Shown here in pieces: positions 4,606-51,461 of a DNA stretch of 64,000 nt (within the stretch, counting starts at the first letter, position 1; each line of letters begins with the position of its first letter). A program made the translations under genes and the position numbers. Origin of the DNA: an uncultured Candidatus Peribacteria bacterium (lineage in GTDB: Bacteria; Patescibacteriota; Gracilibacteria; RBG-16-42-10). Location: contig CAZDKI010000003.1 of the NCBI GenBank assembly GCA_964506115.1, positions 40,627 through 104,626 on the forward strand. Reading direction: 5' to 3'. The notes beneath the pieces are model-generated. The model saw nothing but the letters and a program-made list of their open reading frames with translations. It was not told the DNA's origin and made no database searches.

Positions 4606-5157
4606 ATGGCCAAACTTCATATAGAAAAGAGAGAGACTCCAGACAGTTTAACTCTTGCTCTCTACAAACACACTGAATTAATCATGACGGCAGCTCAAGC
4701 ATTAATTGATGAGCAACCCGACCACTGCACAAAATCAAAGGATCAAATCGCATCCGCTACCTTTAAGCTACCGAGTACACCCCCATCACCTACCTTGTCC
4801 AATAGTCCTTGGTACATAGAAAGTGTAAAAATTACTCGAAACTTCGAGTCAACGACTAGCACTAACTGGCAAGTAGTACTGTTTTTCTTGCATTACTCAA
4901 CCACCGGATTACAAGAAAGAAACGAAATAGTCTTTACAGTATCCGATCGCAATGGACAACTCATTATTTCTATTACCAAAAAGAAAGGTGAACAAATAAC
5001 ATTGTTTATTGAAACCAACCTTAACCGACCTGACCACTTACATAGCAGTGACATGATTATTTTAAGTCACTGTGAAAGTTACTTAAAGCCATTACTGCTT
5101 GAAGCCCAAGGACAGATGAGCAGAAAGGTAGTGAGAGAAGTGATCTCTGCCGGTTAA
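4606..5157 (+). CDS. hypothetical protein
   Basis: 183-aa ORF filling an otherwise empty interval. No motif recognised. Confidence 0.45.
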   Translation: MAKLHIEKRETPDSLTLALYKHTELIMTAAQALIDEQPDHCTKSKDQIASATFKLPSTPPSPTLSNSPWYIESVKITRNFESTTSTNWQVVLFFLHYSTTGLQERNEIVFTVSDRNGQLIISITKKKGEQITLFIETNLNRPDHLHSSDMIILSHCESYLKPLLLEAQGQMSRKVVREVISAG

Positions 5158-5161
5158 GACT

Positions 5162-5497
5162 CTAGAGCTCCATCATTTTCCGTTCAGCAAACTCTTTGGT
5201 TAACTTATAAATAAGCTCCTTGCTATCATCCTTGGCCACGGTTACAGGATGTCTATACTTACACTTCAAACACTCATGAATGATCTGGTAAGTCTTTTTT
5301 GCTGAATTATAAATCATATCCACCGGTTTCATCAGGGACTGGCAGGTACATTTGCGATCTCCTGGAAGCTTCAAATCAACATGGTAAGAATAGAGACAAT
5401 TAGGACAGTGATTCCGACAATAGCCACCACCACGGCGTGGGACCATCATGTGGCAATTTTGGCACTCAAAATCTTCATCCCGATGCGTTGTTTTCAT
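5162..5497 (-). CDS. RNHCP domain protein (Cys-rich, zinc-ribbon-like)
   Basis: 111 aa. Contains CQNCHMMVPRRGGGYCRNHCPNCLYSYHVD, the eponymous RNHCP motif with flanking CxxC pairs. Confidence 0.65.
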   Translation of the reverse strand: MKTTHRDEDFECQNCHMMVPRRGGGYCRNHCPNCLYSYHVDLKLPGDRKCTCQSLMKPVDMIYNSAKKTYQIIHECLKCKYRHPVTVAKDDSKELIYKLTKEFAERKMMEL

Positions 5498-5549
5498 GTA
5501 CTTATCGCTAAAGCTAGTTTACAATAAGAGTGTACCTTATTTTTCGGGC

Positions 5550-35832: not shown

Positions 35833-37542
35833 ATGCTCAAACGGTTGCGGATTGTTGGTTTAACGATAGCAATCCTATCTTTACCAATTTCACCAGTAAG
35901 TGCCCACAACTTTCAAGATGTGCGTCATCAAGACTGGTTTGCTTATTATGTAGATCAATTAGAAGACGGGAGGATCATCAATACTGATACAGCTAACTTT
36001 TATCCCAATCGTTCCATCACTCGCGCTGAATTGGCTAAGATGGTAGTAAAATCGGCACAGTACAAAGGCCAACTACCAGTGGCCATGGTAAGTAGTCAAT
36101 CGGTATTTTGTGATGTCCTAGGTGATAATTGGGCACATGAATTCGTCTCCATTTTAGCCAGCAAAGGCGTAAACGGAGTGAGTGACACTAGCTGCAATCT
36201 TGGCAAAAAGTTTTTGCCTAACCAACCAGTGACTAGAGCAGAAGCGCTGAAGATCATGTTTCTGGTCTATGGTGTAGATGTAAATGGCAGTAGTACTTTC
36301 TCTGATGTCAGCCAAAGTAGCTGGTTTAATAGTTATGTTGCCACCGCTGTTAGATTAAGTTTAGTAAATGGTTACCCTGATCGAACCTTTCGTCCTAATG
36401 GCTTACTGACTAGAGCAGAAATGAGTAAAGTGGTAACCAATTTGATGAATCAAACTGACCACCCAGCAACCGCTGCCCCAACGCCCACACCACAACCAAC
36501 TGATACCAGTGCTGATGACAGCTTCACTCTACCAACTATCAATACTCCCCACGGTAACAACCAAGTGAATGTCCGAACCGAAGCGGAACTACGTGAAGCT
36601 ATTGGTAATGCCGAACCTGGAGATGAGATTATTCTCGCAGCAGGAACCTATAGACTCTCCCGTCAATTATGGATAGATAAACAAGGAACGGAAAGCAATC
36701 CGATTATTATTCGTTCTGGAGGTGAGAAGTATAGTGCAAAACTAACAGGATCTTCAGAAGAAGGGATTAATATTGGTGATGGTGCAGCATACTTGGTCAT
36801 CGATGGCTTAGAAGTGTTTGGTATGGGCGATAACAATATCCATGTGCAAAATGCGCACCATATTACTTTGCAAAATATCAAATCATATGATGCGGGACGT
36901 AATGGGGATGTAATCAAAGTAAACCAAGCTCATCACATCACAGTGCAGAACACAGAGTTGGCTCGCTCTGGTGCTCGTCCAGGTTGTCCTAGTGAAAATT
37001 GTTGGCAAGAGTTAATCGACTTCGTGGACACCGATGATAGTGTCATTCGAGATAATGTAATGACCGATTTCGGTAACCTGGCTGGTTATGTAAAAGGCGG
37101 CAGTACCAATGTTCTGATTACAGGCAATACCATCACTGGTCAACGCAGTGGAGCAGGGGATCCGTCATGGGGTATTGGAGGTTGGACAGATAGAGAACTA
37201 CTAAGAGGTCGCCAATACGAAGCCATCAATGTCCGCTTCGAAGATAATATCATCACCAATAGCAGCTATGGTGCATTAGGTATTTATGACGCCAACAATG
37301 TCCAAATTCGCAATAATACCCTCAACAATAACCGTGGGACTTTGATTGAGTTCAAAGCCGGTAATGCACCTAGCGAAGGTAGCGATAATATCACTATTAC
37401 TGCCAACCGTTTTAATAATAATCAATTAGATCCCGATACCTTGTGTGTCATCTCCAGCCACAATGCTTCAGGTATTGCGATCAGCAATAATTCAGGTAAT
37501 ACTACAGCCGCTGTAAGTGCGACAACTTGTGTGACAGACTAA
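35833..37542 (+). CDS. SLH-domain surface protein with right-handed parallel beta-helix (pectate-lyase-fold) domain
   Basis: 569 aa. Signal peptide. Three SLH repeats (FQDVRHQDWFAYYV..., FCDVLGDNWAHEFV..., FSDVSQSSWFNSYV...). P/T linker. PbH1-like repeats: NIHVQNAHHITLQNIKS / VIKVNQAHHITVQNTEL / NVLITGNTITG / NVQIRNNTLNNN. Confidence 0.8.
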   Translation: MLKRLRIVGLTIAILSLPISPVSAHNFQDVRHQDWFAYYVDQLEDGRIINTDTANFYPNRSITRAELAKMVVKSAQYKGQLPVAMVSSQSVFCDVLGDNWAHEFVSILASKGVNGVSDTSCNLGKKFLPNQPVTRAEALKIMFLVYGVDVNGSSTFSDVSQSSWFNSYVATAVRLSLVNGYPDRTFRPNGLLTRAEMSKVVTNLMNQTDHPATAAPTPTPQPTDTSADDSFTLPTINTPHGNNQVNVRTEAELREAIGNAEPGDEIILAAGTYRLSRQLWIDKQGTESNPIIIRSGGEKYSAKLTGSSEEGINIGDGAAYLVIDGLEVFGMGDNNIHVQNAHHITLQNIKSYDAGRNGDVIKVNQAHHITVQNTELARSGARPGCPSENCWQELIDFVDTDDSVIRDNVMTDFGNLAGYVKGGSTNVLITGNTITGQRSGAGDPSWGIGGWTDRELLRGRQYEAINVRFEDNIITNSSYGALGIYDANNVQIRNNTLNNNRGTLIEFKAGNAPSEGSDNITITANRFNNNQLDPDTLCVISSHNASGIAISNNSGNTTAAVSATTCVTD

Positions 37543-37671: not shown

Positions 37672-39321
37672 ATGCCTGTCATTACCAAAACTTGTATCAC
37701 TAGTGGAAAAACATTCACTGTGTCTGAAGCAGAACAAAAGTATTGCAATGAACGAAATATTCCATTGCCACAACAGCATCCATTTGAACGGTTGAAGCAT
37801 ATAGCAAATTTCCGCAATCGCATTCATCTCTACAATACTACCTGTGCCAAGACAATGAAGCCGATTTTGAGCTGCTTTCCACCTGAGAAAAACTATACCG
37901 TTTATGATATCGAAGCCTGGAGTGGAGATGGCTGGGAAGCTACTGACTACGGTCAGAATTATGATCCAACCCGCTCTTTCTGGGATCAATATGAAGAACT
38001 CCTGAAAAAAGTACCACTGCCCAACTTGAATGTAGTCAGTGGCACAATGGAAAACAGTAATTATGTGAATGGGGCAATGAATCTCAAAAACTGTTACCTC
38101 TGTTTCTCAACATTGGATAGTGTTGATTGTATGTTTTGTTGGGCAACATTCAACTCCCAGAATATTGTTAATAGCATCAACTGTTACTTCAGCGAGATTG
38201 CTTACGACTGCCGTGATATTGAAAAATGTTATAATTGTTTTTATATCGAGAGCTGCCAAAACTGTAGTGATAGCTACTTCTTGTTTGGATGCCAAAGCTG
38301 TAAACACTGTTATGGTTGTATAAACCTTAATAATAAAGAATATTGTTGGTACAATGAACAATTGAGTAAGGATGAATATGAGAAACGTCTTGCTGAGATT
38401 AATTTAGGCAATATTCAGGTAGTAGGCGCTGAGAGAAGTAAATTTAAAGAGTTTTCTAAACAATTCCCTACCAAATATTATCGTGGGAAAAGTATTGAGA
38501 ATAGTGATGGTAACTACATAAGTAATTGTAAAGACACTCATAATGCCTTCTTTTGTACAGATTGTGTTGATATCGAGCACTCTTTAGTTTTATTAAAGAG
38601 TAAGGACTGCTTCGGTATCGTTTCTTCAAAGGCGTGTGAATTGACCTACAACTCTCAAAGCGGCATGAATTATAATTGCCAATATTGCAACGAAAGTCTG
38701 GTAGGTAATCGCAATTTAGCATGGTGCATGTTCACTAATGGTAGTACCGATTGTTTTGGTTGTGTCAGTCTGAAGAAAAAACAATATTGCATACTCAACA
38801 AACAATACTCTCAAGAAGAGTATTTCCAATTGGTAAAACAAATTAAACAAGCAATGATCGACAGTGGAGAATATGAAGATTTCTTTCCACGAAGATTAAG
38901 TCCATTCTACTACAACGAAAGTGATAGCATGATTTACTTCCCAGCTACTAAGGAAGAAGCAACCAAAAATGGATTTAGTTGGAAAGATGAAAATATATCG
39001 CTACAAGAGAGCAGCTACGTACCACCGGACGACATTTCAGCGGTTACAGATGATATTTTGCAGCAAACATTAATTTGTGTAAAAACAGGGAAAAAATATC
39101 GACTAACGAAACAAGAGTTAGATTTTTATCGCAGATTCAAAATACCAGTTCCCCGCATTGCTCCACTAGAACGAGTGAATAACTTTGCTCATCAAATGTT
39201 TGATATGAGAGAGCTAACCACTATTGCTTGCAGCCAATGTCAAAAATCCCTCACAAGCGTATACAACCCGGCTCAACAACAAGTACTTTGTGAAGAGTGT
39301 TTCCTAAAATCAGCCTTTTAA
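37672..39321 (+). CDS. cysteine-rich repeat protein, paralogue 3 of 3 (function unknown)
   Basis: 549 aa. Roughly half of positions are identical to paralogue 2 by eye over the N-terminal 240 aa, for example KKVPLPNL, NLKNCYL, CSDSYFL..CQSCKHCYGC.NL.NKEYCWYNEQL.KDEYE.RL. Confidence 0.8.
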   Translation: MPVITKTCITSGKTFTVSEAEQKYCNERNIPLPQQHPFERLKHIANFRNRIHLYNTTCAKTMKPILSCFPPEKNYTVYDIEAWSGDGWEATDYGQNYDPTRSFWDQYEELLKKVPLPNLNVVSGTMENSNYVNGAMNLKNCYLCFSTLDSVDCMFCWATFNSQNIVNSINCYFSEIAYDCRDIEKCYNCFYIESCQNCSDSYFLFGCQSCKHCYGCINLNNKEYCWYNEQLSKDEYEKRLAEINLGNIQVVGAERSKFKEFSKQFPTKYYRGKSIENSDGNYISNCKDTHNAFFCTDCVDIEHSLVLLKSKDCFGIVSSKACELTYNSQSGMNYNCQYCNESLVGNRNLAWCMFTNGSTDCFGCVSLKKKQYCILNKQYSQEEYFQLVKQIKQAMIDSGEYEDFFPRRLSPFYYNESDSMIYFPATKEEATKNGFSWKDENISLQESSYVPPDDISAVTDDILQQTLICVKTGKKYRLTKQELDFYRRFKIPVPRIAPLERVNNFAHQMFDMRELTTIACSQCQKSLTSVYNPAQQQVLCEECFLKSAF

Positions 39322-39710: not shown

Positions 39711-41480
39711 TCAAAGAGCAGCATTACCAATGACAGCTTTGATACGACGGATACCTTTACTAGAGCTTTCTTCTTTGAGAATTTTGAATGCTTTCAGTTG
39801 ACCAGTATGTTCTACATGTGGGCCACCACATATTTCTTTAGAGAAATCACCCATAGTATAGACTTTGACGGTATCACCATAGCGATCTTCAAAGATGCCA
39901 ATAGCACCGTTCTTTTTGGCTTCTTCTACACTCATTTCTTGCCAACTAACCGCTAAGTCACGCTTAATCTGTTCATTCACAATTGCCTCTACTTTTGTCT
40001 TTTCTTCAGGAGTCATTGGCTTATCATGAGGAAAGTCAAAACGCAAACGTTCACTAGTAATATTGCTACCACGCTGCTCTACATGTGCACCTAATACTGT
40101 CCTAAGTGCTTGATGGAGTAGGTGAGTAGCAGTATGGAGCATTTTACTTTCATCTGAGTGATCAGCCAAACCACCAGCAAATTTTTGCTCACTACCTTGG
40201 CGAGACAAATCTTGATGTTTCTTGAATGCTTCAGCAAAACCTTGTTCATCCACTGAAAAATCAATTTCAGAAGCAAGTTCTTTCGTAATCTCAATTGGGA
40301 AACCAAAAGTGTCGTAGAGGTGAAACGCTTGTTCTCCAGAAATTTGTTTCACTGCTTGCTCAGTAAGTTGTACTTCGAGTTTTCTAAATTGTTTTAAGCC
40401 ATTCTCCAAGGTTTTGTTAAATTGATTTTCTTCGTCCTGAAGAGCTTGGAGTAAACTAATAGGATTCTTCATTAGTTCAGGATAAGCGTCTTGATACATA
40501 GCAATTACCATAGATCCTAATGGTTCCAAAAAGTTACCATTGATTCCCAACTTACGACCGTGGCGAACAGCCCGACGAATTAAACGACGCAATATATATC
40601 CCTGATCAACATTGGCTGGTCTAACGTGATCTGCCAACAAAAACATCGAAGCACGAATATGATCAGCAATAATACGTTCGGAAACTACATTCTGAATGGT
40701 TGCTAATGATCGAATCTTTTCAATGAGTGGTAAAAAGAGTTCAGTGGCATAAATATTATTCTGACCGTTGAGCACCATCAGAGTACGTTCAAGTCCTAAG
40801 CCTGTATCCACATTCTTTTGTTTCAATGGTTGGTATGCACCATCAGCGGTGCGGTTAAACTCCATGAATACATTGTTCCAAATCTCTACCCATTGTTTAT
40901 TACTAGGATCATATTTCTCAGGAGCACCCTCAGTTCCAGTCCAATAAAAGATTTCTGTATCCGGTCCTTGAGGACCAGGATGTTTGCCACCTGAAGGCCA
41001 CCAGTTATCATCTTTACCTAAGAAAACAATGCGACTATCAGGTATGCCTAATTCACGCCACCGTTTATAAGAAACTTCATCGCGAGGAGCTGTTTCATCA
41101 CCTGCAAAACAGGTCACTGCTAATTTATCAACAGGAAGCTCTAAAACTTCTGTAAGTAGTTTATAGCTCAATTCAATTGATTCATTTTTAAAGTAATCCC
41201 CTAAAGACCAGTTTCCCAACATTTCAAAATAAGTATTGTGCGTATTATCACCAACTTCATCAATGTCATCCGTACGAACACATTTTTGGACATTAACTAA
41301 TCTCGTTCCACGTGGATGTTTTTCTCCCATCAAATAAGGTACCAATGGATGCATACCAGCCGTAGTAAAGAGTACGCTAGGATCGTTCTCAGGTACTAGT
41401 GAAGCACTAGGCAAAACCGCATGGCCATTCCTCTCAAAAAACTGTAAATATTTAGCACGTAATTCTTTAGCTGTTAGCAT
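39711..41480 (-). CDS. alaS: alanine--tRNA ligase, short form lacking the C-Ala/DHHA1 C-terminal domain
   Basis: 589 aa. FFERNGHAVLPSASLVP ... LFTTAGMHP ... FEMLGNWS. Editing domain HTATHLLHQAL ... CGGPHVEHTGQL. The protein ends about 30 aa after the editing domain. Confidence 0.9.
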   Translation of the reverse strand: MLTAKELRAKYLQFFERNGHAVLPSASLVPENDPSVLFTTAGMHPLVPYLMGEKHPRGTRLVNVQKCVRTDDIDEVGDNTHNTYFEMLGNWSLGDYFKNESIELSYKLLTEVLELPVDKLAVTCFAGDETAPRDEVSYKRWRELGIPDSRIVFLGKDDNWWPSGGKHPGPQGPDTEIFYWTGTEGAPEKYDPSNKQWVEIWNNVFMEFNRTADGAYQPLKQKNVDTGLGLERTLMVLNGQNNIYATELFLPLIEKIRSLATIQNVVSERIIADHIRASMFLLADHVRPANVDQGYILRRLIRRAVRHGRKLGINGNFLEPLGSMVIAMYQDAYPELMKNPISLLQALQDEENQFNKTLENGLKQFRKLEVQLTEQAVKQISGEQAFHLYDTFGFPIEITKELASEIDFSVDEQGFAEAFKKHQDLSRQGSEQKFAGGLADHSDESKMLHTATHLLHQALRTVLGAHVEQRGSNITSERLRFDFPHDKPMTPEEKTKVEAIVNEQIKRDLAVSWQEMSVEEAKKNGAIGIFEDRYGDTVKVYTMGDFSKEICGGPHVEHTGQLKAFKILKEESSSKGIRRIKAVIGNAAL

Positions 41481-41546: not shown

Positions 41547-41572
41547 CTGTAGGTATTCAAGAATACCTACAG
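41547..41572. repeat. perfect 26-nt palindrome overlapping the stop codon of the RAYT-like gene
   Basis: CTGTAGGTATTCA/AGAATACCTACAG. Arms of 12 nt around a central AA. No following U run on the gene strand. Confidence 0.8.
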
Positions 41573-42096
41573 TACTTCCTTTCCCACTTTTTAGGATTAT
41601 TAGCTATATAAGCTCTAATATTCCACAGTGCGTGCTCATTACGAATTATCCTTTCGTAATAGCCTTTTTTCCACAATGAAGAACCAGTAGTTCCATTCAA
41701 TAAGTTCACATGCTTCGCAGTTTGCATCTTAAATTTTCCAATCAAAAGACTAAGCATCATGTTGCGTCTTGAGTGTGCCGCCGTCTCCCCCTCGTTCACT
41801 GATTCATGAATCAGTGAACCTTGAACGCCTCTCGGCACATCTTTGATCCAGGTGATGCCGGGCACGTGATCGGGCATTATGACGAAAGCATCCAATGCAC
41901 ACCTGGTGTTCTCTTTGGCTAACTGTCTCCAATAATACTCACAGACATAGGCGGCCGGAGTCCAAGATAATTTACCATTAACTAATTGACCGAGATTTTT
42001 TCTTCTTTTGTGAGTAACAAAGGTAATAAAATAGCCTGCAGGATCAGAGTAGTCCCAAGAAAGTAATCGACGCATCAAACTCTTTAAGTAAATCAA
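41557..42096 (-). CDS. IS200/RAYT-like Y1 (HUH-family) transposase homologue with degenerate HUH motif
   Basis: 179 aa. YFITFVTHKRRKNLG, IMPDHVPGITWI (HVH expected, HVP found, CCC instead of CAC), and WKKGYYERIIRNE ... YIANNPKKW (catalytic Tyr region). Confidence 0.7.
   Translation of the reverse strand: MIYLKSLMRRLLSWDYSDPAGYFITFVTHKRRKNLGQLVNGKLSWTPAAYVCEYYWRQLAKENTRCALDAFVIMPDHVPGITWIKDVPRGVQGSLIHESVNEGETAAHSRRNMMLSLLIGKFKMQTAKHVNLLNGTTGSSLWKKGYYERIIRNEHALWNIRAYIANNPKKWERKYCRYS
41794..41819. repeat. perfect 26-nt palindrome inside the RAYT-like ORF
   Basis: GTTCACTGATTCA/TGAATCAGTGAAC. Shares the central ATTCA-GAAT core with the palindrome at 41547-41572. Confidence 0.8.
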
Positions 42097-42364: not shown

Positions 42365-44347
42365 CTATTTATTCTTGCCCTTCTTCAACTGTTTTTCCAG
42401 CTCATCAATCTGATCACGAATTTCAGCTGCTTTTTCGAATTCCATTTTGCCAGCTGCAATATCCATTTGTAGTTCAAGCTCGGCAATCACTTTAGCCAAC
42501 TCTTCATGCGGCAAAGTTTGTAAAGCCTGACCATCTTGCTTCAGCTCATCATGTGGCATGATATCTCGGATCTCCTTGATAATAGTCTTTGGCGTAATAC
42601 CATGCTCTATATTGTAAGCTTCTTGGATAGCACGACGACGATTCGTTTCATGTAACGCTTTTTTCATTGAGTCTGTCATACGATCGGCATACATGATTAC
42701 TTGACCGTGAGCATTACGAGCCGCACGACCAATAGTCTGGATCAACGCCATTTCTGAACGTAAGAAACCCTCTTTATCAGCATCCAAAATGGCTACTAAA
42801 CTCACTTCAGGTAAATCCAAACCTTCACGGAGTAAGTTGATACCCACTACTACCTCAATTACCCCTAAACGTAAATCTCTTAAAATATCCAAGCGGACTA
42901 AGGTTTCAATGTCGGAGTGAAGATACTTCACTCGTATACCTGCTTCTTGCAAATACTCAGTCAAATCTTCTGCCATACGCTTAGTCAATGTGGTCACTAA
43001 TACTCGTTCATCCACCTTAATTCTTTCGCGAATCTCATTGAGTAAATCATCTACTTGATTTTGCGTTGGTTTAACAGTAACCACTGGATCAAGTAAACCT
43101 GTAGGACGAATCAATTGTTCCACTACAACCCGACCTGATTTCTCTAATTCATACTCACGGGGTGTTGCTGATACATAGACTACCTTGTTGATCTGCCCTT
43201 CAAATTCAGTGAAGGTTAATGGACGGTTATCATAAGCAGATGGCAAACGGAATCCATAATCAACCAAACTCTTTTTGCGAGCCAAATTACCATTAAACAT
43301 CCCGCCAATCTGAGGAACAGAAATATGTGACTCATCAATAAACATCATGTAGTCATCTGGAAAATAATCCAGCAATGTCGCTGGTTGTTCTCCGGGTGAC
43401 CGATTGCCTAAATAACGAGTGTAGTTCTCAATACCACTACAGTATCCGGTCTCCATCATCATTTCCAAATCATACTCCGTTCTTTGTTTGAGACGTTGCG
43501 CTTCAACAATCTTCCCCATACCATTGAGCTCTTTCAGTCTCTCTTCTAGGTCTATCTTGATTTGCTCCACCGCTCTTAGTACTGCTTCACGAGAAGTAAC
43601 TGCGTGTTTAGCTGGGAACACTTCTACTGATTGCAGACTAGCGACAATTTCACCAGTAAGTGTATCAAACTCATCGAGCGTTTCTATCTCATCACCAAAG
43701 AATGCCACGCGGACAGCAGTATCACTATAGGTAGGATAAATCTCTACGACATCGCCACGTGCTCGAAAAGTACCACGGACAAAAGCTAACTCATTACGTT
43801 TATATTGTAAATCTGCTAAATGTCGAAGCAATTTTTCACGCTTATAACTCATGCCCACACTAAGCTTCTCCGCCACATTGCCATATTCTTCCACTGATCC
43901 CAAGCCGTAAATACATGACACTGAGGCTACGATAATGACATCTCTGCGAGTCAAAAGATTCTTAGTCGCAGCATGACGATACTTATCAATCTCTTCATTG
44001 ATAGAAGCATCTTTTTCAATATAAGTATCTGAGCGAGCAATATATGCTTCTGGCTGATAGTAATCGTAATAAGAAACGAAGTAATTGACTGCATTATCAG
44101 GGAAGAACTCCTTAAACTCAGAATAAAGTTGGGCAGCTAAGGTCTTGTTATGAGCAAGAATCAAAGTAGGCTTCTGAATCTGATTGATCACATTAGCCAT
44201 AATAAATGTCTTACCGGTACCGGTAGCTCCCAATAAAGTCTGATGTACTTTCCCTTCTTCAAGCCCTTTGATCAAAGCAGCCAAAGCCTTTGGTTGATCA
44301 CCCGTCGGTGAGTACGGAGCAACCAATCTAAATGGTTTGTTTTCCAT
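42365..44347 (-). CDS. uvrB: excinuclease ABC subunit B
   Basis: 660 aa. [36 protein letters not shown], and the C-terminal UVR motif [11 protein letters not shown]. Confidence 0.95.
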
Positions 44348-44524
44348 GATGAAATAATTTTTCGCATTCTAACAGACTCAAGCTGAAGACGTAAAGCTTT
44401 TCATCCAGCTCAAAGCTAAATTCTAAAATCTAGATTCCACACTTCACATCAAAATTGCTCCTGCTCACAAAATAGAGTAAAGTTGCGGCACGAAATTTCC
44501 CTCACAGCCCTTTATCTTCTTAAT

Positions 44525-47500
44525 ATGGCTACCCCCGAAAAAAAGTCCGCATCTAAGATAGAACCAAAGACCATCTTTGATCCTGTTCAAGTAAAACAGT
44601 CCTTCCCAGATCTTGAGAATGACATTTTAGATTTTTGGAAAAAAGACGATGTCTTCAAATTAGTACAAGACAAACGAACAGGTAGTAAACCGTTCATTTT
44701 CTACGAAGGTCCTCCAACTGCCAATGGCAAACCAGGAGTACACCATGTGATCGCTCGCGTATTCAAAGATGTAATTTTGCGATATAAAACCATGCAAGGC
44801 TTTTATATTGAACGTAAAGCCGGATGGGATACACATGGGCTACCAGTTGAGTTGCAGGTAGAAAAAGAATTAGGAATTTCAGGTAAGAAGCAAATTGAAG
44901 AATACGGTATCGAAGCCTTCAATAATAAATGTAAAGACTCAGTTCATAAGTTCACTCAAGCCTTTGAAGTGATGACCGAGCGTATCGGTTACTGGGTAGA
45001 TATGAAAAACCCGTATGTAACATACTCTCCCGATTATATCGAATCAGTATGGTGGTGTCTCAAACAAATTTGGGAAAAAGGTTTACTGTACCGTGATCTC
45101 AAAATTGTTCCTTATTGTTGTCGTTGTGGTACCCCACTTTCTAGTCATGAAGTCGCACAAGAGTATCAGACAGTAAAAGATATGTCTCTGACAGCTCTTT
45201 TCAAAATCATCGATCAAGCTAAATTTAGCAAGGATAGCGAGACTGTTTACTTTGCCGCTTGGACTACTACACCTTGGACCTTGGTAGGTAACCTCGCGCT
45301 CTGTGTCGGACCTGATATCGAGTATAGCCAAGTAAGAATAGATCAAAATACAGCAATCATCATCGCTACAGATCGTATTGCAGCTTACAATGATGTCCTG
45401 CCAAAAGATGAAGAGGGGAAACCACAGTACACCATTGAAGCTACGTACCGAGGCACCGATCTCGTCGACACTAGTTATGAAGCTCCTTGGAATTATTACA
45501 CAAGCGAAAAGAAAGGACATTATGTAGTAGCTGAACCATTTGTCACTACTACCGACGGTACTGGTATCGTTCATATTGCTCTCTATGGTGAGGATGATTA
45601 TCAAGTGATCCAAAAATATGACTTACCGAGACTGCAACATGTAGATAAGGAAGGCCGATTCATCGCTGGCAGCGGTCCATATAGTGGTCGTTACTTCAAA
45701 GAAGAAGGACTAGATGTGGAAGTACTCAAAGATTTGGCAGCACGAAACATGCTCCTCAAAAAAGAAAAATATGAGCACAACTATCCTCACTGTTGGAGAT
45801 GTAAAACACCACTGATTTATTTTGCCATCAGCTCTTGGTTTATTCGCATGTCACAATTGAGAGATGAATTGGTCAAAAACAACCAAGAGATCAATTGGCA
45901 TCCAGAACATATCAAAGAAGGACGATTCGGTAATTGGCTCAATGAAATTAGAGATTGGGCGGTGTCTCGCAATCGGTACTGGGGCACCCCATTACCGGTC
46001 TGGGAATGTCAGTCATGTCACAAGACCTTGTGTGTTGGCTCTATGATCGAACTTCAAAAAAAGAGCGGCCAGGATTTGCCAATCAACGACAAAGGGGAAC
46101 CAGACCTCCATCGTCCTTATATCGACAATATTATTATTGCCTGTGAATGTGGTGGCACTATGAAAAGAGTAGAAGAGGTAATTGACTGTTGGTTTGACTC
46201 CGGTGCCATGCCAGTCGCTCAAGTCCACTATCCATTCGATATCAAAGACCAAGAGTTCCAGGAACACTACTTCCCAGCGGATTATATCTGTGAAGCAATC
46301 GACCAAACTCGGGGTTGGTTCTATACATTATTAGCTGTCAGCACTGCTATTTGGAATAAAACCGCTTATAAAAATGTCATCTGTCTCGGCCATATCCTTG
46401 ATGATAAAGGGATCAAGATGAGTAAGTCTCAAGGCAACATCGTCGACCCAATGGAGGTAGCGGATAAACATGGAGCCGACGCATTGCGTTGGTATATGTT
46501 TAATGCTTCGCCCCCAGGTCAACCACGTAATTTCTCAATTAGCTTAGTTGAACAATCGCTACGTAAGTTCCAACTGACATTGTGGAATGTATACTCATTC
46601 TTCGTCACCTACGCTAACATTGATCAATTCCAACCTCAGAAATTCACCAAGGTAATTAGTGTCCAACACACTGAGTCAGAAAATATTCCTCTTGGTGTAG
46701 TCGCTAGTGACAAAGATCAAGTCTACCATCTCACTGAGAAAGGACATCGTGATGCTGAAGCATTGGCCCAAGAATTCAAACATAGTAGCCTCGATAAAAT
46801 CTTCGTTGCCCCCCTCAATCGCACTCGAGAAACAGCTGAAATTATTAGCCAATTCCACCAAGTACCTGTGATTGATGATGAACGCTTACGTGAGCTTAAC
46901 TTAGGAACATTTGACGGTAAATTGGCAGCTGATGTAGAAACATACTTAAGCAGCCTTACCAATCAATATGCGCAGAAATTTCCTGAAGGTGAATCATACC
47001 TAGATCTAGAAGAACGCGTCTTTGCTTTCTTGGATGAGATCAAAGAAAACTGCGCAGGTGAAACGATCCTGATCGTCGCTAATGGTATGGTAAAAAAAAT
47101 GATTGATAAATACTTCAATCACACACCATCAGATCAAGTAATTGCTAATAAATTTAGCCTTGGCAGTATCGATCGCTATGTGATGCCATGGAGTGAACAT
47201 AAACTCGATCGATGGATCCTTTCTGAACTCCATGCCATGGTCAAAGAAGTAGCAATTATGCTCGACAATTACCAAATCTGGGAATCTACCAACAAAATTG
47301 AGAAATTTGTTGACAATCTTTCCAACTGGTATGTACGTAGATCGCGCCGCCGCTTCTGGAAAGCAGAAAATGACCAGGACAAAAATGGTGCATACCAGAC
47401 TCTCTATCATGTACTGACCACTTTAGTAAAAGTAATTGCACCATTCGTTCCTTTTGTCAGTGAGCACATCTATCGCAACTTAGTAGGTAAAGAATCTGTG

Positions 47501-48280
47501 CATATGGCCAGCTTCCCTCGTAGCATAGATAGTTTCATCCGACCAGCACTCAATGAGGAAATGGCATTCATGCGTAATATCGTTAATTTAGGCCATGCTA
47601 TTCGTGCTAGTCAGAAATTGAAAACACGTCAACCGCTACAGTCAGCAACAGTTATTGCTCCTATGCGTTTGCAAGCTGAGGAACTCCAAGTGATTGCGGA
47701 AGAACTCAATGTCAAAACCGTAACCATGACTAGCCCCGAACAAGCGACTATTCAAAAAGGTATCAAACCAAAAGCAGCCATTATTGGCCCTAAATATGGC
47801 AATGATGTCCAAACAATTATGCAAGCTGCCCGTGATCATAATGTGACCTTCGAAGATAATGGCACTGTTACTGTGGCTGGCAAATTCACCTTAGCTCCAG
47901 ATGAGTTTGAGGTTGTTTACAAAACTGAACCAGGTATGAGCATCATGAGTGAAGGCAATATCGTAGTCACACTCGACACCAATCTCACGGATGAATTGGT
48001 ATACGAAGGATATGCTCGTGAAATCGTACGTGCCATCCAAGACATGCGTAAAGCAGCCAATTACCAAGTAGACAGCCGTATCAATGTCAGCCTCGAAGTA
48101 CTGAGTGAACCTGAATTAGCCCATAAAGTAATCACTACCTGTGGTTCTTATATTGCTCGTGAGACATTGGCCGACACCCTCAATGCGGCCAATATCATCC
48201 CTGATAGAGAAGAAAAGATCGCTGTAGACAAACTAGAATTAGCGATAAAGATCTGCCCAAGTCAGAAAAGCAATAGCTAA
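44525..48280 (+). CDS. ileS: isoleucine--tRNA ligase with inserted degenerate histidine-phosphatase-fold domain
   Basis: The ATG at 44525 (MATPEKK...) is preferred over the TTG at 44483. PPTANGKPGVHHV, the CP1/editing region, KMSKSQGN, and the anticodon-binding region LDRWILSEL ... NWYVRRSRRRFW. An extra ~170-aa domain is encoded at about 46684-47200. Confidence 0.9.
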   Translation: MATPEKKSASKIEPKTIFDPVQVKQSFPDLENDILDFWKKDDVFKLVQDKRTGSKPFIFYEGPPTANGKPGVHHVIARVFKDVILRYKTMQGFYIERKAGWDTHGLPVELQVEKELGISGKKQIEEYGIEAFNNKCKDSVHKFTQAFEVMTERIGYWVDMKNPYVTYSPDYIESVWWCLKQIWEKGLLYRDLKIVPYCCRCGTPLSSHEVAQEYQTVKDMSLTALFKIIDQAKFSKDSETVYFAAWTTTPWTLVGNLALCVGPDIEYSQVRIDQNTAIIIATDRIAAYNDVLPKDEEGKPQYTIEATYRGTDLVDTSYEAPWNYYTSEKKGHYVVAEPFVTTTDGTGIVHIALYGEDDYQVIQKYDLPRLQHVDKEGRFIAGSGPYSGRYFKEEGLDVEVLKDLAARNMLLKKEKYEHNYPHCWRCKTPLIYFAISSWFIRMSQLRDELVKNNQEINWHPEHIKEGRFGNWLNEIRDWAVSRNRYWGTPLPVWECQSCHKTLCVGSMIELQKKSGQDLPINDKGEPDLHRPYIDNIIIACECGGTMKRVEEVIDCWFDSGAMPVAQVHYPFDIKDQEFQEHYFPADYICEAIDQTRGWFYTLLAVSTAIWNKTAYKNVICLGHILDDKGIKMSKSQGNIVDPMEVADKHGADALRWYMFNASPPGQPRNFSISLVEQSLRKFQLTLWNVYSFFVTYANIDQFQPQKFTKVISVQHTESENIPLGVVASDKDQVYHLTEKGHRDAEALAQEFKHSSLDKIFVAPLNRTRETAEIISQFHQVPVIDDERLRELNLGTFDGKLAADVETYLSSLTNQYAQKFPEGESYLDLEERVFAFLDEIKENCAGETILIVANGMVKKMIDKYFNHTPSDQVIANKFSLGSIDRYVMPWSEHKLDRWILSELHAMVKEVAIMLDNYQIWESTNKIEKFVDNLSNWYVRRSRRRFWKAENDQDKNGAYQTLYHVLTTLVKVIAPFVPFVSEHIYRNLVGKESVHMASFPRSIDSFIRPALNEEMAFMRNIVNLGHAIRASQKLKTRQPLQSATVIAPMRLQAEELQVIAEELNVKTVTMTSPEQATIQKGIKPKAAIIGPKYGNDVQTIMQAARDHNVTFEDNGTVTVAGKFTLAPDEFEVVYKTEPGMSIMSEGNIVVTLDTNLTDELVYEGYAREIVRAIQDMRKAANYQVDSRINVSLEVLSEPELAHKVITTCGSYIARETLADTLNAANIIPDREEKIAVDKLELAIKICPSQKSNS

Positions 48281-49498
48281 GGCGATCACAACTACAACAA
48301 TTGCGGTATAGATGTACATGATCTTACGCAATTGTTTGTGACCAAAAATTACTGAGATACCACACTTCACAATCATATTGCTCATAAATACCAAGAGTAC
48401 AGCAACACTAGCTTGAATGGTACTGATACTACCTTGGCCAGCTAATTGACTAGCCGAAATCGTCATCGCATCTACATCAGCTACACCGGCAAATAAACTA
48501 GCAAAGTAAAGTCCATTGACTCCAAAATAGGCTGTACTAGTACGTGCCAGGAATGAAATGACTACGAAAAGCAAAGCAAAAGTAATTGCAGAACTGATTT
48601 GAAAAGGATTATTTAAACTAACATTCTCATCCGTAGTCACTGTCTTGGTATGTAGTCTCCAAATAAACAAGACACCAATAATACCTAGTAAGACCATTGG
48701 TGCCACTAACCACTGCAGAATAGTCGGATTGACCAGAGATGCTGTAGTAAGCACTCTGATGGCTGCGATTGAACTAGCAATCACACTTCCCATTGCAAAC
48801 AAGGTGACAGGTCCAAGACTACGCTTAGATTGTTGAGCCATGGCCGTAGTTACTGCTGTCGACGATACCAAACCGCCGACTGCAGAACTAACCAAGATAC
48901 TACCGCGGCTACCAATAACAATATGTAATATATAACCAACGAAACTGATACCAGAAACAAGCACTACCATCCACCAAGCAACATAAGGATTGAAAAAATT
49001 CCAAGGACCCATATATTGATTAGGGAGAAAGGGCAAAATAGCTCCACTTAATACTGCAAATTGAACAGTAGCGAGAACTGCCTCCCTCGGTAAAATTTGT
49101 AACCAATTGGTAAGCACTTTTTTCACAGATAGAACCAAAGCCACCATTACCCCCATGGCCAGCACAATGCTATGATCCAATTGCAACGACAGAGCAGTTA
49201 ATAAAAATATAACAATCGCAGCCATTTCTGTAGTCAAACCATGTTGCTCGTGGTTCTTCATCCTGACGTAATAGCTCAAAGAAAGGATGGCAATCAAACT
49301 CAAAAACGCTATCGGGAAAAAGATCGGCCCCCAAAGCTGAGTAATTACACCAGTAAGCCATCCCCAAGCACCAATAAAAATAAATGTGCGCAAGCCGGCA
49401 ATAGTATTGACACCACTCAACCGATAAGACTCTCGTTCTAAGCCAACCAATACCGCTATTGCTAGAGACAAACCTAATGAAGGTAAAAAATCAGTCAT
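48239..49498 (-). CDS. MgtC/SapB family membrane protein with DUF4010-like extension
   Basis: The ATG at 49498 (MTDFLPSLGLSLAIAVLVGLERE) avoids overlap with uvrC. Multi-TM throughout. Its 3' end overlaps the ileS 3' end convergently by 42 nt. Confidence 0.7.
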   Translation of the reverse strand: MTDFLPSLGLSLAIAVLVGLERESYRLSGVNTIAGLRTFIFIGAWGWLTGVITQLWGPIFFPIAFLSLIAILSLSYYVRMKNHEQHGLTTEMAAIVIFLLTALSLQLDHSIVLAMGVMVALVLSVKKVLTNWLQILPREAVLATVQFAVLSGAILPFLPNQYMGPWNFFNPYVAWWMVVLVSGISFVGYILHIVIGSRGSILVSSAVGGLVSSTAVTTAMAQQSKRSLGPVTLFAMGSVIASSIAAIRVLTTASLVNPTILQWLVAPMVLLGIIGVLFIWRLHTKTVTTDENVSLNNPFQISSAITFALLFVVISFLARTSTAYFGVNGLYFASLFAGVADVDAMTISASQLAGQGSISTIQASVAVLLVFMSNMIVKCGISVIFGHKQLRKIMYIYTAIVVVVIALAIAFLTWADLYR

Positions 49499-49544
49499 AA
49501 AAAGAATATTCTTATTAGAATAGCATAAAATACCTCTTCTCACC

Positions 49545-51461
49545 ATGTTTACCGTTAGTGATCTCATCAAGGATTTGCTTAAAAAATGTAGTACACAACC
49601 AGGTGTCTACAAAATGCTCGATAAAGATAATCAGATCATTTATGTCGGCAAAGCAAAAAATCTACGTAAACGCGTAAAATCATATTTCCAGAAAAACAAA
49701 ACCATTGCCCCAAAGGTAGCAGTGATGCGAGAACGAATCGTAAATATTGAATTCACAGTTACTCGCACTGAGCTTGAAGCCCTCGTACTAGAAACCAACC
49801 TAATCAAAAGTATTCGGCCGAAGTACAACATCCTGATGAAAGATGACAAGAACTATGTCTATGCCAAGATTGCCAAAGATGTCGACTTTCCAGAAATCGA
49901 AATAGTGCGTCATTTTCGCAAAGATGCTAGCCACCATTATTTTGGGCCGTATACCTCAACCGATAGTATATTTAAGACTCTCAAGGGATTACAGAAACTA
50001 TTTCCTTACCGTAGCTGTCATGGAGAAATCAAAGAAATCGCTCCCGGCCAAACCGTTATTCACAACTTAAGCCGCCAAGCTCCTTGTTTAGACTATTACA
50101 TCAAACGCTGTCAGGCTCCCTGTATTGGCAAAGTAACCAAAGAAGAGTATCAGACCAATATCGCTCATATTTGCGCTATCCTCGGCGGAGACTATCAAGA
50201 TTTGGCTAAACAGTGGGAACAATCAATGACTGAAGCCGTGAGCAAAAAGGCATTTGAACAAGCAGCCAAGTACCGTGACCGCCTACAAGCATTGTCAGTT
50301 CTGACTGAAAAACAGTATGCCATTCTTACCTCAGGCCACAATCAAGATGTTTTAGCCGTCGCTAAAGATGAAGCAAATGCAGTGATTGCTCTCTTCATGA
50401 TTCGTAATGGCCATATCATTAGAACCGAGCATTTCAATCTGACCGACCAAAGTAAAGAAGAGTCGGTAGAAAATATGCTGGAATCTTTCATTCAGCAATA
50501 CTATACCGATGCCAGTTCTATCCCGGAAGAAATTGTTACCAGTGTAAGCTTAAGCGAAGAAAAGTTGTTGAGCCAATTTCTAACTACTCTGAAAGGGAAA
50601 AAAGTCACCTTGCTTACTCCAGAGAGAGGGGAGAAGCGACAATTGATCAGCATGGTAGAAGAAAATGCGAAACTACAATTAGAAGCAAATAAACAAGCTT
50701 GGGAACGAGAACGTGTCCATAGTAGCGGCGCTCTTGAGAGTTTACAGCAAGCTCTCAAGATGAAGTCAGTACCCCGACGTATAGAATGTTATGATATTTC
50801 TCATATTCAAGGCACTAATAAAGTAGGCTCTATGGTGGTGTTTATAGACGGAAAGCCCCTGACCAGCCACTATCGGCGATTCACCATCAAGGAGCTGGAA
50901 GAGGGGGTAAATAATGACTTTGCTTCACTACAAGAAGTACTTACTCGACGCATTCAATATTTAGATAGCGTCTATCGTAATAAAAAGAAGCGCAGAAAAG
51001 AAAAGATGGATACCGTTTCACTTCCTGAGCAACCGGACCTCATCATTATCGATGGCGGAAAGGGCCAACTTAGCAGTGTGATGACTGCACTCAAAGCAGT
51101 CATCAAAAGTGGTAGTAAAATCACCCTCCCTAAAGTAGTCAGTCTTGCTAAACAAGAAGAAGAGATCTTTATTCCTAAACAAAGAACACCAATTATCTTG
51201 CCTAAAGATAGTCCCGAGTTTTTCTTGATTCAACGCATTCGAGATGAAGCGCATCGTTTCGCTATTCAAGGTCATCGCAAAATGCGCGGCAAAAAGATGG
51301 TCCAGTCCGTGTTAGACGGCATCGATGGTATTGGTCCCAAAACTAAAAAGAAGCTTCTCTCTACCTTTGGCAGTGTTGCTGGTATTAGAGAAGCTTCTTG
51401 GGAACAACTACTCAGTGTAGTTGATGAACATATTGCCGAAAAAATCCGGGAACAAATTTAA
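49545..51461 (+). CDS. uvrC: excinuclease ABC subunit C
   Basis: 638 aa. GIY-YIG region GVYKMLDKDNQIIYVGKAKNLRKRVKSYF, UVR motif FEQAAKYRDRLQAL, endonuclease V-like region IECYDISHIQG, C-terminal HhH. Confidence 0.95.
   Translation: MFTVSDLIKDLLKKCSTQPGVYKMLDKDNQIIYVGKAKNLRKRVKSYFQKNKTIAPKVAVMRERIVNIEFTVTRTELEALVLETNLIKSIRPKYNILMKDDKNYVYAKIAKDVDFPEIEIVRHFRKDASHHYFGPYTSTDSIFKTLKGLQKLFPYRSCHGEIKEIAPGQTVIHNLSRQAPCLDYYIKRCQAPCIGKVTKEEYQTNIAHICAILGGDYQDLAKQWEQSMTEAVSKKAFEQAAKYRDRLQALSVLTEKQYAILTSGHNQDVLAVAKDEANAVIALFMIRNGHIIRTEHFNLTDQSKEESVENMLESFIQQYYTDASSIPEEIVTSVSLSEEKLLSQFLTTLKGKKVTLLTPERGEKRQLISMVEENAKLQLEANKQAWERERVHSSGALESLQQALKMKSVPRRIECYDISHIQGTNKVGSMVVFIDGKPLTSHYRRFTIKELEEGVNNDFASLQEVLTRRIQYLDSVYRNKKKRRKEKMDTVSLPEQPDLIIIDGGKGQLSSVMTALKAVIKSGSKITLPKVVSLAKQEEEIFIPKQRTPIILPKDSPEFFLIQRIRDEAHRFAIQGHRKMRGKKMVQSVLDGIDGIGPKTKKKLLSTFGSVAGIREASWEQLLSVVDEHIAEKIREQI

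What the first reader, a model, noticed from the sequence alone, without database searches (positions are those of the whole stretch)
46684..47200. IleRS carries an inserted histidine-phosphatase (PGAM-like) fold domain with both catalytic histidines replaced
The ileS product is 1251 aa. An extra ~170 aa sits between the post-KMSKS helical region (...FFVTYANIDQF) and the start of the anticodon-binding domain (LDRWILSEL). Its sequence is IPLGVVASDKDQVYHLTEKGHRDAEALAQEFKHSSLDKIFVAPLNRTRETAEIISQFHQVPVIDDERLRELNLGTFDG...FPEGESYLDLEERV...ETILIVANGMVKKMI. This follows the histidine phosphatase superfamily branch 1 pattern: (RHGET)...LT.KG..QA...SS.L.R...TAEII...D.RL.E...G..EG...P.GES...(VSHG). The nucleophile motif RHG is replaced by ASD, and the distal HG is replaced by NG. 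The Arg of NRTRETA and the acidic RELNLG are kept. A pseudo-phosphatase module inserted into an aminoacyl-tRNA synthetase is unusual. It could bind a phosphorylated ligand (nucleotide, alarmone or tRNA end) or mediate regulation.
Basis: partly seen in the sequence, partly recalled or inferred. Interest (0 to 1): 0.7.

Follow-up and report, generated by a model that had tools for sequence, protein, structure and literature searches.

The report
Degenerate histidine-phosphatase domain inside IleRS
The isoleucyl-tRNA synthetase of this candidate-phyla-radiation bacterium carries a complete, strongly conserved histidine-phosphatase domain that keeps its catalytic histidine but has lost half of its phosphate pocket. 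It is one case of an apparently undescribed habit of these bacteria of inserting such phosphatases into, or encoding them beside, class I tRNA synthetases.

Summary
The ileS gene (44525-48280, 1251 aa) contains a 188-aa insert (aa 706-893, nt 46640-47203). It replaces a 5-residue linker between the catalytic body and the anticodon-binding domain of a type-2 IleRS. The insert matches Pfam His_Phos_1 (E 4e-30). Modelled alone it folds as a histidine phosphatase (pLDDT 94.7, TM 0.86 to PspA 4IJ5).

Lost pocket residues are Arg→Gln714, Asn→Ile721 and distal His→Asn853. Arg766 and Glu790 remain.

Ten Abawacabacteria orthologues carry the same gap-free insert. Basal ones keep the full pocket, so the loss was stepwise. 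dN/dS of the insert (0.025-0.033) equals that of the core enzyme.

The nearest relatives of the domain include more than 40 other CPR IleRS and one ValRS. Their inserts are catalytically intact and sit at four or more different loops. There are also QueC and MiaB-like fusions. Seven of eight standalone homologues examined lie next to ileS, usually after argS.

The domain is most likely a selected, catalytically weakened binding module. Its substrate is unknown. I found no literature on this.

The parts
44525..48280 (+). ileS, type-2 isoleucyl-tRNA synthetase, 1251 aa. An alternative TTG start at 44483 would give 1265 aa.
   Evidence: ORF list and translation. TIGR00392 ileS scores 946.7 bits against a cut-off of 621.4. 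Pfam finds tRNA-synt_1, Anticodon_1 and DUF5915. Best solved relative is 8C8W IleRS, E 7e-277.
44525..46639 (+). IleRS catalytic body (aa 1-705): Rossmann fold, CP1 editing domain, Zn-knuckle, KMSKS (aa 631-635, nt 46415-46429) and the post-KMSKS helices.
   Evidence: Aligns to residues 4-665 of 8C8W. Pfam tRNA-synt_1 covers aa 34-665. KMSKS position.
46640..47203 (+). Inserted histidine-phosphatase (His_Phos_1) domain, 188 aa (aa 706-893).
   Evidence: Pfam E 4e-30 in the whole protein and 2.4e-31 for the excised segment. The insert has the same length with no gaps in 10 orthologues. AlphaFold model of the insert alone: pLDDT 94.7, pTM 0.90. Foldseek top hits are 4IJ6/4IJ5, 4PZ9, 6E4B and 1H2E, with TM 0.81-0.86.
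46664..46672 (+). Q714-H715-T716, the equivalent of the RHG motif. The nucleophile His is kept and the Arg is replaced by Gln.
   Evidence: Alignment to PspA R8-H9. R9/H10/G11 are nearly invariant columns in the 132-sequence alignment. Codons checked.
46682..46687 (+). N720-I721. The family-conserved pocket Asn column holds Ile here, and an Asn sits one residue earlier.
   Evidence: N16 is a nearly invariant column in A5. The role of this Asn in the pocket is described in PMC12051542.
46820..46822 (+). R766, the second pocket arginine, retained.
   Evidence: Invariant in A2, A4 and A5.
46892..46894 (+). E790, the proton-donor glutamate, retained.
   Evidence: Invariant in the 10 orthologues. 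It aligns with the Glu of 'RLREIHLG' in PhoE.
47081..47083 (+). N853, which takes the place of the distal pocket histidine ('VANG' against 'VTHG/VSHG').
   Evidence: Alignment to PhoE 'IVTHG'. Column H148 is nearly invariant in the family. Residue tables.
47204..48277 (+). Anticodon-binding helical domain and C-terminal DUF5915 domain of IleRS (aa 894-1251).
   Evidence: Pfam Anticodon_1 at aa 895-1040 and DUF5915 at aa 1055-1243. Aligns to 8C8W residues 671-1013.

Best explanation
SHOWN. The segment is a complete 188-aa histidine-phosphatase (branch 1) domain. It was inserted once, in an ancestor of the Abawacabacteria-type CPR bacteria, into the short surface linker that joins the catalytic body of a type-2 IleRS to its anticodon-binding domain.

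SHOWN. The domain belongs to a CPR-specific subfamily of ~190-aa phosphatases whose standalone genes usually sit between argS and ileS. Members of this subfamily have repeatedly been inserted in-frame into IleRS at several loops, sometimes in 2-4 copies. They also occur in ValRS and fused to QueC and to a MiaB-like enzyme.

SHOWN. In those relatives, and in the basal orthologues of this gene, all six phosphate-pocket residues are intact. In the window's subclade the pocket eroded stepwise to Gln714, His715, Ile721, Arg766, Glu790 and Asn853. That is three of six residues changed, with the nucleophile kept.

SHOWN. The domain still evolves under purifying selection as strong as that on the essential synthetase core.

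INFERRED. The ancestral module was an active phosphomonoesterase working alongside class I synthetases, most plausibly on a nucleotide-type by-product or ligand. The window's version is no longer an efficient phosphatase. It is retained as a phosphate- or nucleotide-binding, structural or regulatory module of IleRS, with at most slow turnover through His715.
For: Domain identity and fold.

Exact insertion point: aa 706-893 replace the linker residues 666-670 of 8C8W. The insert is absent from P0012-P0015.

Single origin and stepwise loss: ten orthologues carry an identical-length insert. The NJ tree puts insert-less P0012 as sister. Basal P0007/8/10 have R-H-N-R-E-H, P0009/11 have T-H-D/E-R-E-H, P0006 has N-H-N-R-E-Q, and the window with P0003-5 has Q-H-I/V-R-E-N.

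Selection: insert versus rest dN/dS is 0.025 vs 0.021 (window-L001), 0.033 vs 0.038 (L001-L002) and 0.020 vs 0.033 (L004-L005). Protein identity is 54-93% in the insert against 71-96% in the rest. GC content is the same as the host gene.

Family context: 44 of the 150 closest representatives are aaRS-embedded. Insertion sites are mapped. RH..R..E..H is kept wherever the alignment reaches those columns (59 of 59 for RH, 70 of 72 for the distal His) among 75 domain copies in the long (>=300 aa) proteins outside this clade, most of them aaRS.

Gene neighbourhood: standalone homologues lie next to ileS in 7 of 8 loci and directly after argS in 6 of 8, with HIT or NUDIX genes nearby in several. ileS genes that carry an insert have no standalone copy beside them.

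Pocket definition (R8, H9, N15, R58, E82, H149): PMC12051542.
Against: No biochemical data exist for any member.

The amide substitutions (Gln or Asn at the Arg site, Asn or Gln at the distal His site) can still hydrogen-bond a phosphate. With His715, Arg766 and Glu790 invariant, real though altered catalysis cannot be excluded.

The variety of insertion sites and copy numbers in relatives argues against a fixed geometric role relative to tRNA. It is equally compatible with simple co-expression of an unrelated housekeeping phosphatase.

Many of the neighbourhood examples share the argS-X-ileS synteny and may not be independent.

dS is saturated for all but the closest pairs.
Confidence: 0.55

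Rival explanations
1. The domain in this lineage is still a working phosphatase. Gln714, Asn720 and Asn853 take over phosphate coordination. This would retune substrate specificity, for example towards a less charged or bulkier phospho-ligand, or slow the hydrolysis of the phospho-histidine intermediate.
For: The nucleophile His715, Arg766 and Glu790 are invariant in all 10 orthologues. The replacements are polar amides in two sublineages (Q/N here, N/Q in P0006) rather than random residues. An Asn sits one position before the lost pocket Asn. Purifying selection is strong.
Against: Three of the six pocket residues that are near-invariant in the family are changed (pocket definition in PMC12051542). 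Two positive charges are lost. From general knowledge of the superfamily, mutating the RHG Arg or the distal His lowers activity by orders of magnitude; this was not tested here.
Confidence: 0.3
2. One reading: a pure pseudo-phosphatase with both catalytic histidines replaced (RHG→ASD and HG→NG), acting only as a binding module.
For: The distal His is indeed Asn853.
Against: The ASD assignment is an alignment error. Three independent alignments and the predicted strand order place RHG on Q714-H715-T716, so the nucleophile is present and invariant.
Confidence: 0.02
3. The insert is functionless baggage, either a decaying neutral insertion or an assembly or annotation artefact.
For: Catalytic residues are eroding in this subclade.
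Against: The same gap-free 188-aa insert is found in 10 clusters from independent MAGs and samples. dN/dS is about 0.03, equal to the core enzyme. There are 61 invariant columns. The fold prediction is confident.
Confidence: 0.03
4. The association is only a co-expression convenience. An unrelated housekeeping phosphatase, for example a phosphoserine, ribazole or sugar-phosphate phosphatase, is hitch-hiking in or beside highly expressed aaRS genes of reduced genomes, with no biochemical coupling to aminoacylation. In the window's lineage that activity became dispensable, and the domain is kept only because removing it would destabilise IleRS.
For: Insertion sites and copy numbers vary widely, up to 4 tandem copies, and partners include QueC and MiaB-like proteins. 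The best characterised relatives are small-molecule phosphatases: PspA, CobC, PhoE and Rv2419c.
Against: The recurrence is specific to class Ia synthetases (IleRS, ValRS) and to argS/ileS neighbourhoods. All partners are tRNA- or nucleotide-related. Surface conservation within the clade is very high, more than structural tolerance alone would require.
Confidence: 0.25

Closest known systems
Small broad-specificity histidine phosphatases of branch 1: PspA/iPSP1 of Hydrogenobacter thermophilus (4IJ5), PhoE of Geobacillus stearothermophilus (1H2E/1EBB), CobC alpha-ribazole phosphatase (6E4B, 6NRU), Rv2419c (4PZ9), Aquifex HFP (9MMH)
   Same: They share the fold and size (TM 0.81-0.86; sequence E 1.6e-17 to PhoE and 1.3e-14 to PspA). 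They share the nucleophile His, the second Arg and the Glu proton donor.
   Different: Those are standalone enzymes with a complete R-H-N-R-E-H pocket. Here the domain is embedded in IleRS, and Arg→Gln714, Asn→Ile721 and His→Asn853.
Type-2 IleRS (Priestia megaterium-type 8C8W/8C8U; Thermus thermophilus 1ILE)
   Same: Full-length homology (E 7e-277). KMSKS, the CP1 editing region, the anticodon-binding domain and the DUF5915 C-terminus are all present.
   Different: In 8C8W residues 665 and 671 are joined by a 5-residue linker. Here 188 aa are intercalated at that point.
Other CPR class Ia synthetases with embedded His_Phos_1, e.g. P0116 (JGI), P0155 = MBI5153429.1 'class I tRNA ligase family protein [Parcubacteria group bacterium]', P0140, P0126 and ValRS P0264
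   Same: They carry the same phosphatase subfamily inserted in-frame into surface loops of IleRS or ValRS. P0126, P0132 and P0140 also have a copy at the same junction as the window (aa 704/705).
   Different: Most are inserted in the Zn-knuckle loop (window aa ~514-527) or near aa 540-582, and some in 2-4 copies. All keep the canonical RH..R..E..H set. Their IleRS cores are only 35-50% identical to this one.
Other synthetases or nucleic-acid enzymes carrying an extra catalytic domain: NCBIfam NF040702 'ileS_w_GNAT' (IleRS with an N-acetyltransferase domain) and NF005567 'bifunctional RNase H/acid phosphatase' (a histidine-phosphatase domain fused to RNase H)
   Same: These are precedents for IleRS acquiring a foreign enzyme domain, and for a CobC-like histidine phosphatase being fused to a nucleic-acid enzyme. 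Both models appear in the hit list.
   Different: They involve a different domain (GNAT) or a different partner (RNase H), and terminal fusion rather than internal insertion. The window's protein scores far below both curated cut-offs, so it is not a member of either.

Membership tests
Histidine phosphatase superfamily, branch 1 (Pfam PF00300) | Significant profile match above the curated threshold | tested here: met
   105.4 bits against a cut-off of 21.7, E 4e-30. Also matches TIGR03162, NF045917 and others, all below their equivalog cut-offs.
Histidine phosphatase superfamily, branch 1 (Pfam PF00300) | Alpha/beta fold of the superfamily | tested here: met
   AlphaFold pLDDT 94.7, pTM 0.90. 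Foldseek probability 1.00 and TM 0.86 to 4IJ5/4IJ6, with 298 PDB matches at E<=0.001, the 50 best shown all family members.
Histidine phosphatase superfamily, branch 1 (Pfam PF00300) | Nucleophilic His of the RHG motif | tested here: met
   H715 aligns with PspA His9. It is invariant in the 10 orthologues.
Histidine phosphatase superfamily, branch 1 (Pfam PF00300) | Arg of the RHG motif (phosphate pocket) | tested here: not met
   Gln714. Arg is retained only in P0007/8/10.
Histidine phosphatase superfamily, branch 1 (Pfam PF00300) | Pocket Asn (N15 of HFP, N17 of dPGM) | tested here: not met
   The conserved column holds Ile721, with Asn720 adjacent. Whether Asn720 compensates cannot be judged without coordinates.
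Histidine phosphatase superfamily, branch 1 (Pfam PF00300) | Second pocket Arg | tested here: met
   R766 is invariant.
Histidine phosphatase superfamily, branch 1 (Pfam PF00300) | Glu proton donor | tested here: met
   E790 is invariant in the orthologues and aligns with the PhoE Glu.
Histidine phosphatase superfamily, branch 1 (Pfam PF00300) | Distal pocket His | tested here: not met
   Asn853.
Histidine phosphatase superfamily, branch 1 (Pfam PF00300) | Phosphatase or mutase activity through a phospho-His intermediate | not testable with these tools
   Needs enzymology.
Type-2 isoleucyl-tRNA synthetase | ileS equivalog model above cut-off, class I signature KMSKS, anticodon-binding domain, and the DUF5915 C-terminal domain typical of the MupA-like/eukaryote-like type | tested here: met
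   TIGR00392 scores 946.7 bits against 621.4. The closest 'exception' models are MupA and MupB, below their cut-offs. Pfam finds Anticodon_1 and DUF5915. KMSKS is at aa 631-635. 8C8W matches at E 7e-277.
Type-2 isoleucyl-tRNA synthetase | Isoleucylation of tRNAIle and editing activity | not testable with these tools
   Inferred from conservation only (core dN/dS about 0.02).
CPR aaRS-linked histidine-phosphatase subfamily (informal group defined here) | Closest relatives are CPR ~190-aa phosphatases and aaRS-embedded copies | tested here: met
   In the representative search, 44 of the best 150 are aaRS-embedded. The profile search finds standalone proteins of Moranbacteria, Pacebacteria and Patescibacteria.
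CPR aaRS-linked histidine-phosphatase subfamily (informal group defined here) | Genomic linkage to ileS/argS (fusion or adjacency) | tested here: met
   In the window the domain is fused. Seven of eight standalone homologues are adjacent to ileS and one is not.
CPR aaRS-linked histidine-phosphatase subfamily (informal group defined here) | Intact catalytic set RH..R..E..H, as in the other members | tested here: not met
   The window has QH..R..E..N.

The most novel reading that the evidence does not exclude
CPR bacteria possess a dedicated histidine phosphatase that is a true functional partner of class Ia aminoacyl-tRNA synthetases. It might clear or sense a phosphorylated nucleotide by-product or inhibitor of the adenylation reaction, or remove a blocking phosphate or pyrophosphate from the tRNA 3' end. 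It has been captured repeatedly as an internal domain of IleRS and ValRS. The Abawacabacteria lineage has converted the captured enzyme into a non-hydrolysing phospho-ligand sensor that regulates IleRS.
Probability: 0.3. Interest if true: 0.85.

Novelty: new variant of a known kind. Interest (0 to 1): 0.66.

Why it matters
Aminoacyl-tRNA synthetases are among the most conserved enzymes. New internal catalytic domains in bacterial synthetases are rare and have usually pointed to new biology such as editing, signalling or resistance.

Three independent genomic signals link this phosphatase subfamily to class I synthetases in a very large and poorly understood branch of bacteria. They are recurrent in-frame insertion at several loops, multi-copy insertion, and conserved adjacency to argS/ileS.

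The Abawacabacteria series offers a natural gradient from a complete to a half-eroded phosphate pocket under constant purifying selection. That makes it a ready-made system for studying how an enzyme domain becomes a pseudo-enzyme within an essential protein.

If the phosphatase acts on tRNA ends or on adenylate-type by-products, it would define a new accessory step of translation in reduced genomes.

Tried and rejected
(1) Searching the 211-aa fragment in the word-indexed protein database gave only two standalone hits. This wrongly suggested the insert was nearly unique. The full-length search and the exhaustive profile search corrected that.

(2) The full-length AlphaFold model (aa 52-1251, pLDDT 84.8) gave only moderate confidence in the insert, with blocks of 41-87, because only 10 rows cover it. 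The insert was remodelled alone with 132 sequences.

(3) dN/dS is interpretable only for the closest pairs. dS is saturated for most comparisons.

(4) PADLOC defence models gave no hit for the insert, for a standalone homologue or for P0007, so there is no support for a defence-system origin.

(5) Seven literature searches found nothing relevant. They covered IleRS with histidine phosphatase, phosphoglycerate mutase or phosphatase domain; aaRS with CPR or Patescibacteria; Abawacabacteria; and pseudoenzymes. One search had invalid syntax.

(6) Recent horizontal acquisition or a mobile element was rejected. The GC content of the insert is 0.402 against 0.423 for the rest of the gene, and the insert is present in all orthologues.

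(7) The idea that copies at the same junction in P0126, P0132 and P0140 share an origin with this insert was rejected. In those proteins the other copy, not the same-site copy, is the better match to the Abawacabacteria profile.
Full report
**1. What is in the sequence**

The + strand ORF 44483-48280 encodes an isoleucyl-tRNA synthetase. It scores 946.7 bits on the ileS equivalog model TIGR00392, against a cut-off of 621.4. It has tRNA-synt_1, Anticodon_1 and the C-terminal DUF5915 domain, and its nearest 'exception' models are MupA and MupB, so it is a type-2 IleRS. Its closest solved relative is the 1032-aa IleRS of 8C8W (E 7e-277). Window residues 21-706 align to chain residues 4-665 and residues 891-1227 to 671-1013. 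About 185 residues therefore take the place of a five-residue linker.

Aligned with the nearest insert-less IleRS sequences (P0012-P0015), the extra segment is aa 706-893, nt 46640-47203. They also start 15 codons too late.

**2. Identity of the insert**

Pfam His_Phos_1 matches at E 4e-30 in the whole protein and 2.4e-31 in the excised piece. Several NCBIfam histidine-phosphatase models match below their equivalog cut-offs: CobC, PspA, archaeal dPGM and GpmB. PDB sequences of PhoE (E 1.6e-17) and PspA (E 1.3e-14) also match.

Modelled alone with a 132-sequence alignment, the insert gives pLDDT 94.7 and pTM 0.90. Foldseek returns only histidine phosphatases: 4IJ6/4IJ5 at TM 0.86, then Rv2419c, CobC, PhoE and HFP 9MMH. 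The fold assignment is secure.

**3.

The phosphate pocket of this superfamily is R8, H9, N15, R58, E82 and H149 in HFP numbering (PMC12051542). Four lines of evidence place RHG instead on Q714-H715-T716 in 'KVISVQHTESEN':
- the HMMER alignment to PspA, whose catalytic His9 is the residue mutated in 4IJ6;
- the NCBIfam PspA model, which aligns from profile position 3 at aa 709;
- the 132-sequence MAFFT alignment, in which R9, H10, G11 and N16 are nearly invariant columns;
- the predicted first beta-strand, insert residues 3-9.

The pocket in the window is therefore Gln714, His715, Ile721 (with Asn720 next to it), Arg766, Glu790 and Asn853. The nucleophile is present. Three of the six pocket residues are changed.

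**4. Orthologues and history**

A full-length search found nine further clusters, 68-96% identical, with the same architecture. All come from MAGs labelled Abawacabacteria, Peribacteria or Gracilibacteria. Every other IleRS listed was about 1035-1090 aa without PF00300, except P0116. Six species-representative genomes carry the insert.

The insert is exactly 188 aa with no gap in all ten, and 61 columns are invariant. A neighbour-joining tree of the core enzyme puts the insert-less P0012 as sister to the clade and orders the pocket states as follows:
- P0007/8/10 (basal): R-H-N-R-E-H, fully canonical.
- P0009/11: T-H-D/E-R-E-H.
- P0006: N-H-N-R-E-Q.
- Window and P0003-5: Q-H-I/V-R-E-N.

The domain therefore arrived intact and eroded stepwise, and both charged residues ended up as amides.

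Despite this, Nei-Gojobori dN/dS of the insert equals that of the rest of the gene. It is 0.025 vs 0.021 for window-L001, 0.033 vs 0.038 for L001-L002 and 0.020 vs 0.033 for L004-L005. The more distant pairs are saturated. The GC content matches the host gene. The domain is neither decaying nor a recent import.

**5. The wider context**

An exhaustive profile search of 1.84 billion representatives returned 25,296 family members. Among the best 150, 44 are class I synthetases or fragments of them. Pfam confirms the following:
- IleRS with one His_Phos_1 domain (P0116 and others);
- IleRS with two domains (P0140, P0126, P0125, P0163);
- a fragment with four domains (P0124);
- a ValRS (P0264);
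- a QueC fusion (P0133);
- a fusion to a MiaB-like radical-SAM methylthiotransferase (P0249).

One of these is annotated as coming from a Parcubacteria bacterium. Mapped to window numbering, most inserts lie in the Zn-knuckle loop (aa ~514-527). Others lie near aa 540-546 and 565-582. In P0126, P0132 and P0140 a second copy lies at aa 704/705, the window's own site. Wherever the alignment reaches the relevant columns, the 75 domain copies in long proteins outside the Abawacabacteria clade keep RH (59 of 59), the second Arg, the acidic proton donor and the distal His (70 of 72) almost without exception.

A broader profile search finds that the best-scoring standalone members are ~190-aa 'histidine phosphatase family proteins' of Moranbacteria, Pacebacteria and other Patescibacteria. 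I looked up eight of these:
- Six lie just upstream of a type-2 ileS on the same strand, sometimes with a HIT gene, two hemerythrin genes or three other genes in between.
- One lies convergent to and directly adjacent to ileS.
- One is elsewhere.
- Six follow argS directly.
- NUDIX or recO follows ileS in several loci.

P0280 keeps the ileS adjacency in a different upstream context. Two ileS genes with an internal copy have no standalone copy beside them. In the ValRS-insert contig argS lies two genes downstream. The 64-kb window holds no other member of the family.

**6. Interpretation**

Fusion at several independent sites plus conserved adjacency is the classical genomic signature of a functional link. 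Here it connects this phosphatase subfamily with class Ia synthetases, with IleRS foremost.

What the phosphatase does is not shown by anything here. The variable insertion geometry, the tandem copies and the company of HIT and Nudix genes favour a soluble nucleotide-type substrate or ligand over a precisely positioned tRNA end. This is inference.

For the window's protein, three facts hold together: half of the pocket is lost, the nucleophile, Arg766 and Glu790 are strictly retained, and purifying selection is core-like. These are best explained by a module that still binds something in the old pocket, or that is structurally integrated into IleRS, but no longer turns over efficiently. An altered but real activity is the main rival. 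Baggage, artefact and the 'both histidines gone' reading are rejected.

**7. Novelty**

The proteins are present in public databases under generic names, and their Pfam hits are precomputed. Seven full-text searches found no description of histidine-phosphatase domains in IleRS or of the ileS linkage. Only open-access literature was searchable.

I class the finding as a new variant of known kinds: an accessory-domain synthetase, and a degenerate histidine phosphatase. The CPR-wide association is the more interesting result.

Noticed in passing
P0124, P0140, P0126, P0132, P0163, P0125 (proteins): Some CPR IleRS carry two His_Phos_1 domains at different loops or in tandem. One class I aaRS fragment (P0124, 1161 aa) carries four copies, all with canonical catalytic residues.
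   Followed up: partly
P0133 (579 aa), P0249 (591 aa), P0264 (1069 aa; locus L022 5001-8210): The same phosphatase subfamily is fused to QueC (queuosine precursor synthesis) and to a MiaB-like radical-SAM methylthiotransferase. It is also inserted into a ValRS at the loop equivalent to the IleRS Zn-knuckle site.
   Followed up: partly
L008, L010, L012, L014, L016, L019, L021 (around 5001-5600 in each): Standalone CPR homologues sit in a recurring argS - phosphatase - ileS arrangement. A HIT-family gene (L016/L017) or two hemerythrin genes (L012) lie in between, and NUDIX or recO follows ileS. A small 50-56-aa ORF often lies between argS and the phosphatase.
   Followed up: partly
L005 1224-445 (-): The Abawacabacteria RBG_16_42_10 contig encodes a second, distant His_Phos_1 ORF (about 260 aa, E 2e-10 to the family profile) roughly 2.5 kb upstream of its insert-bearing ileS.
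   Followed up: no
window 39711-41480 (-): The alanyl-tRNA synthetase here is only 589 aa (tRNA-synt_2c plus tRNA_SAD). It appears to lack the usual C-terminal extension of bacterial AlaRS.
   Followed up: no
window 41557-42096 (-): A 179-aa ORF between alaS and uvrB has a borderline match to the IS200-like Y1 transposase family (23.0 bits, exactly at the gathering score), covering only the C-terminal half of the profile.
   Followed up: no
window 48239-48280: The 3' end of ileS overlaps by about 40 nt the end of a convergent gene (48239-49570, -) that encodes an MgtC/DUF4010 membrane protein. ileS is flanked by uvrB (42365-44347, -) and uvrC (49545-51461, +).
   Followed up: no
window 44483-44525: An in-frame TTG 14 codons upstream of the ATG would give a 1265-aa product. 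The 96%-identical database protein P0003 is called with that longer form. Orthologue N-termini differ in length, so the true start is uncertain.
   Followed up: no
window 35833-37542 (+): A 569-aa protein combines S-layer homology (SLH) repeats with a right-handed beta-helix/chondroitinase-B-like domain. It lies next to a 549-aa ORF (37672-39321) with no Pfam match.
   Followed up: no
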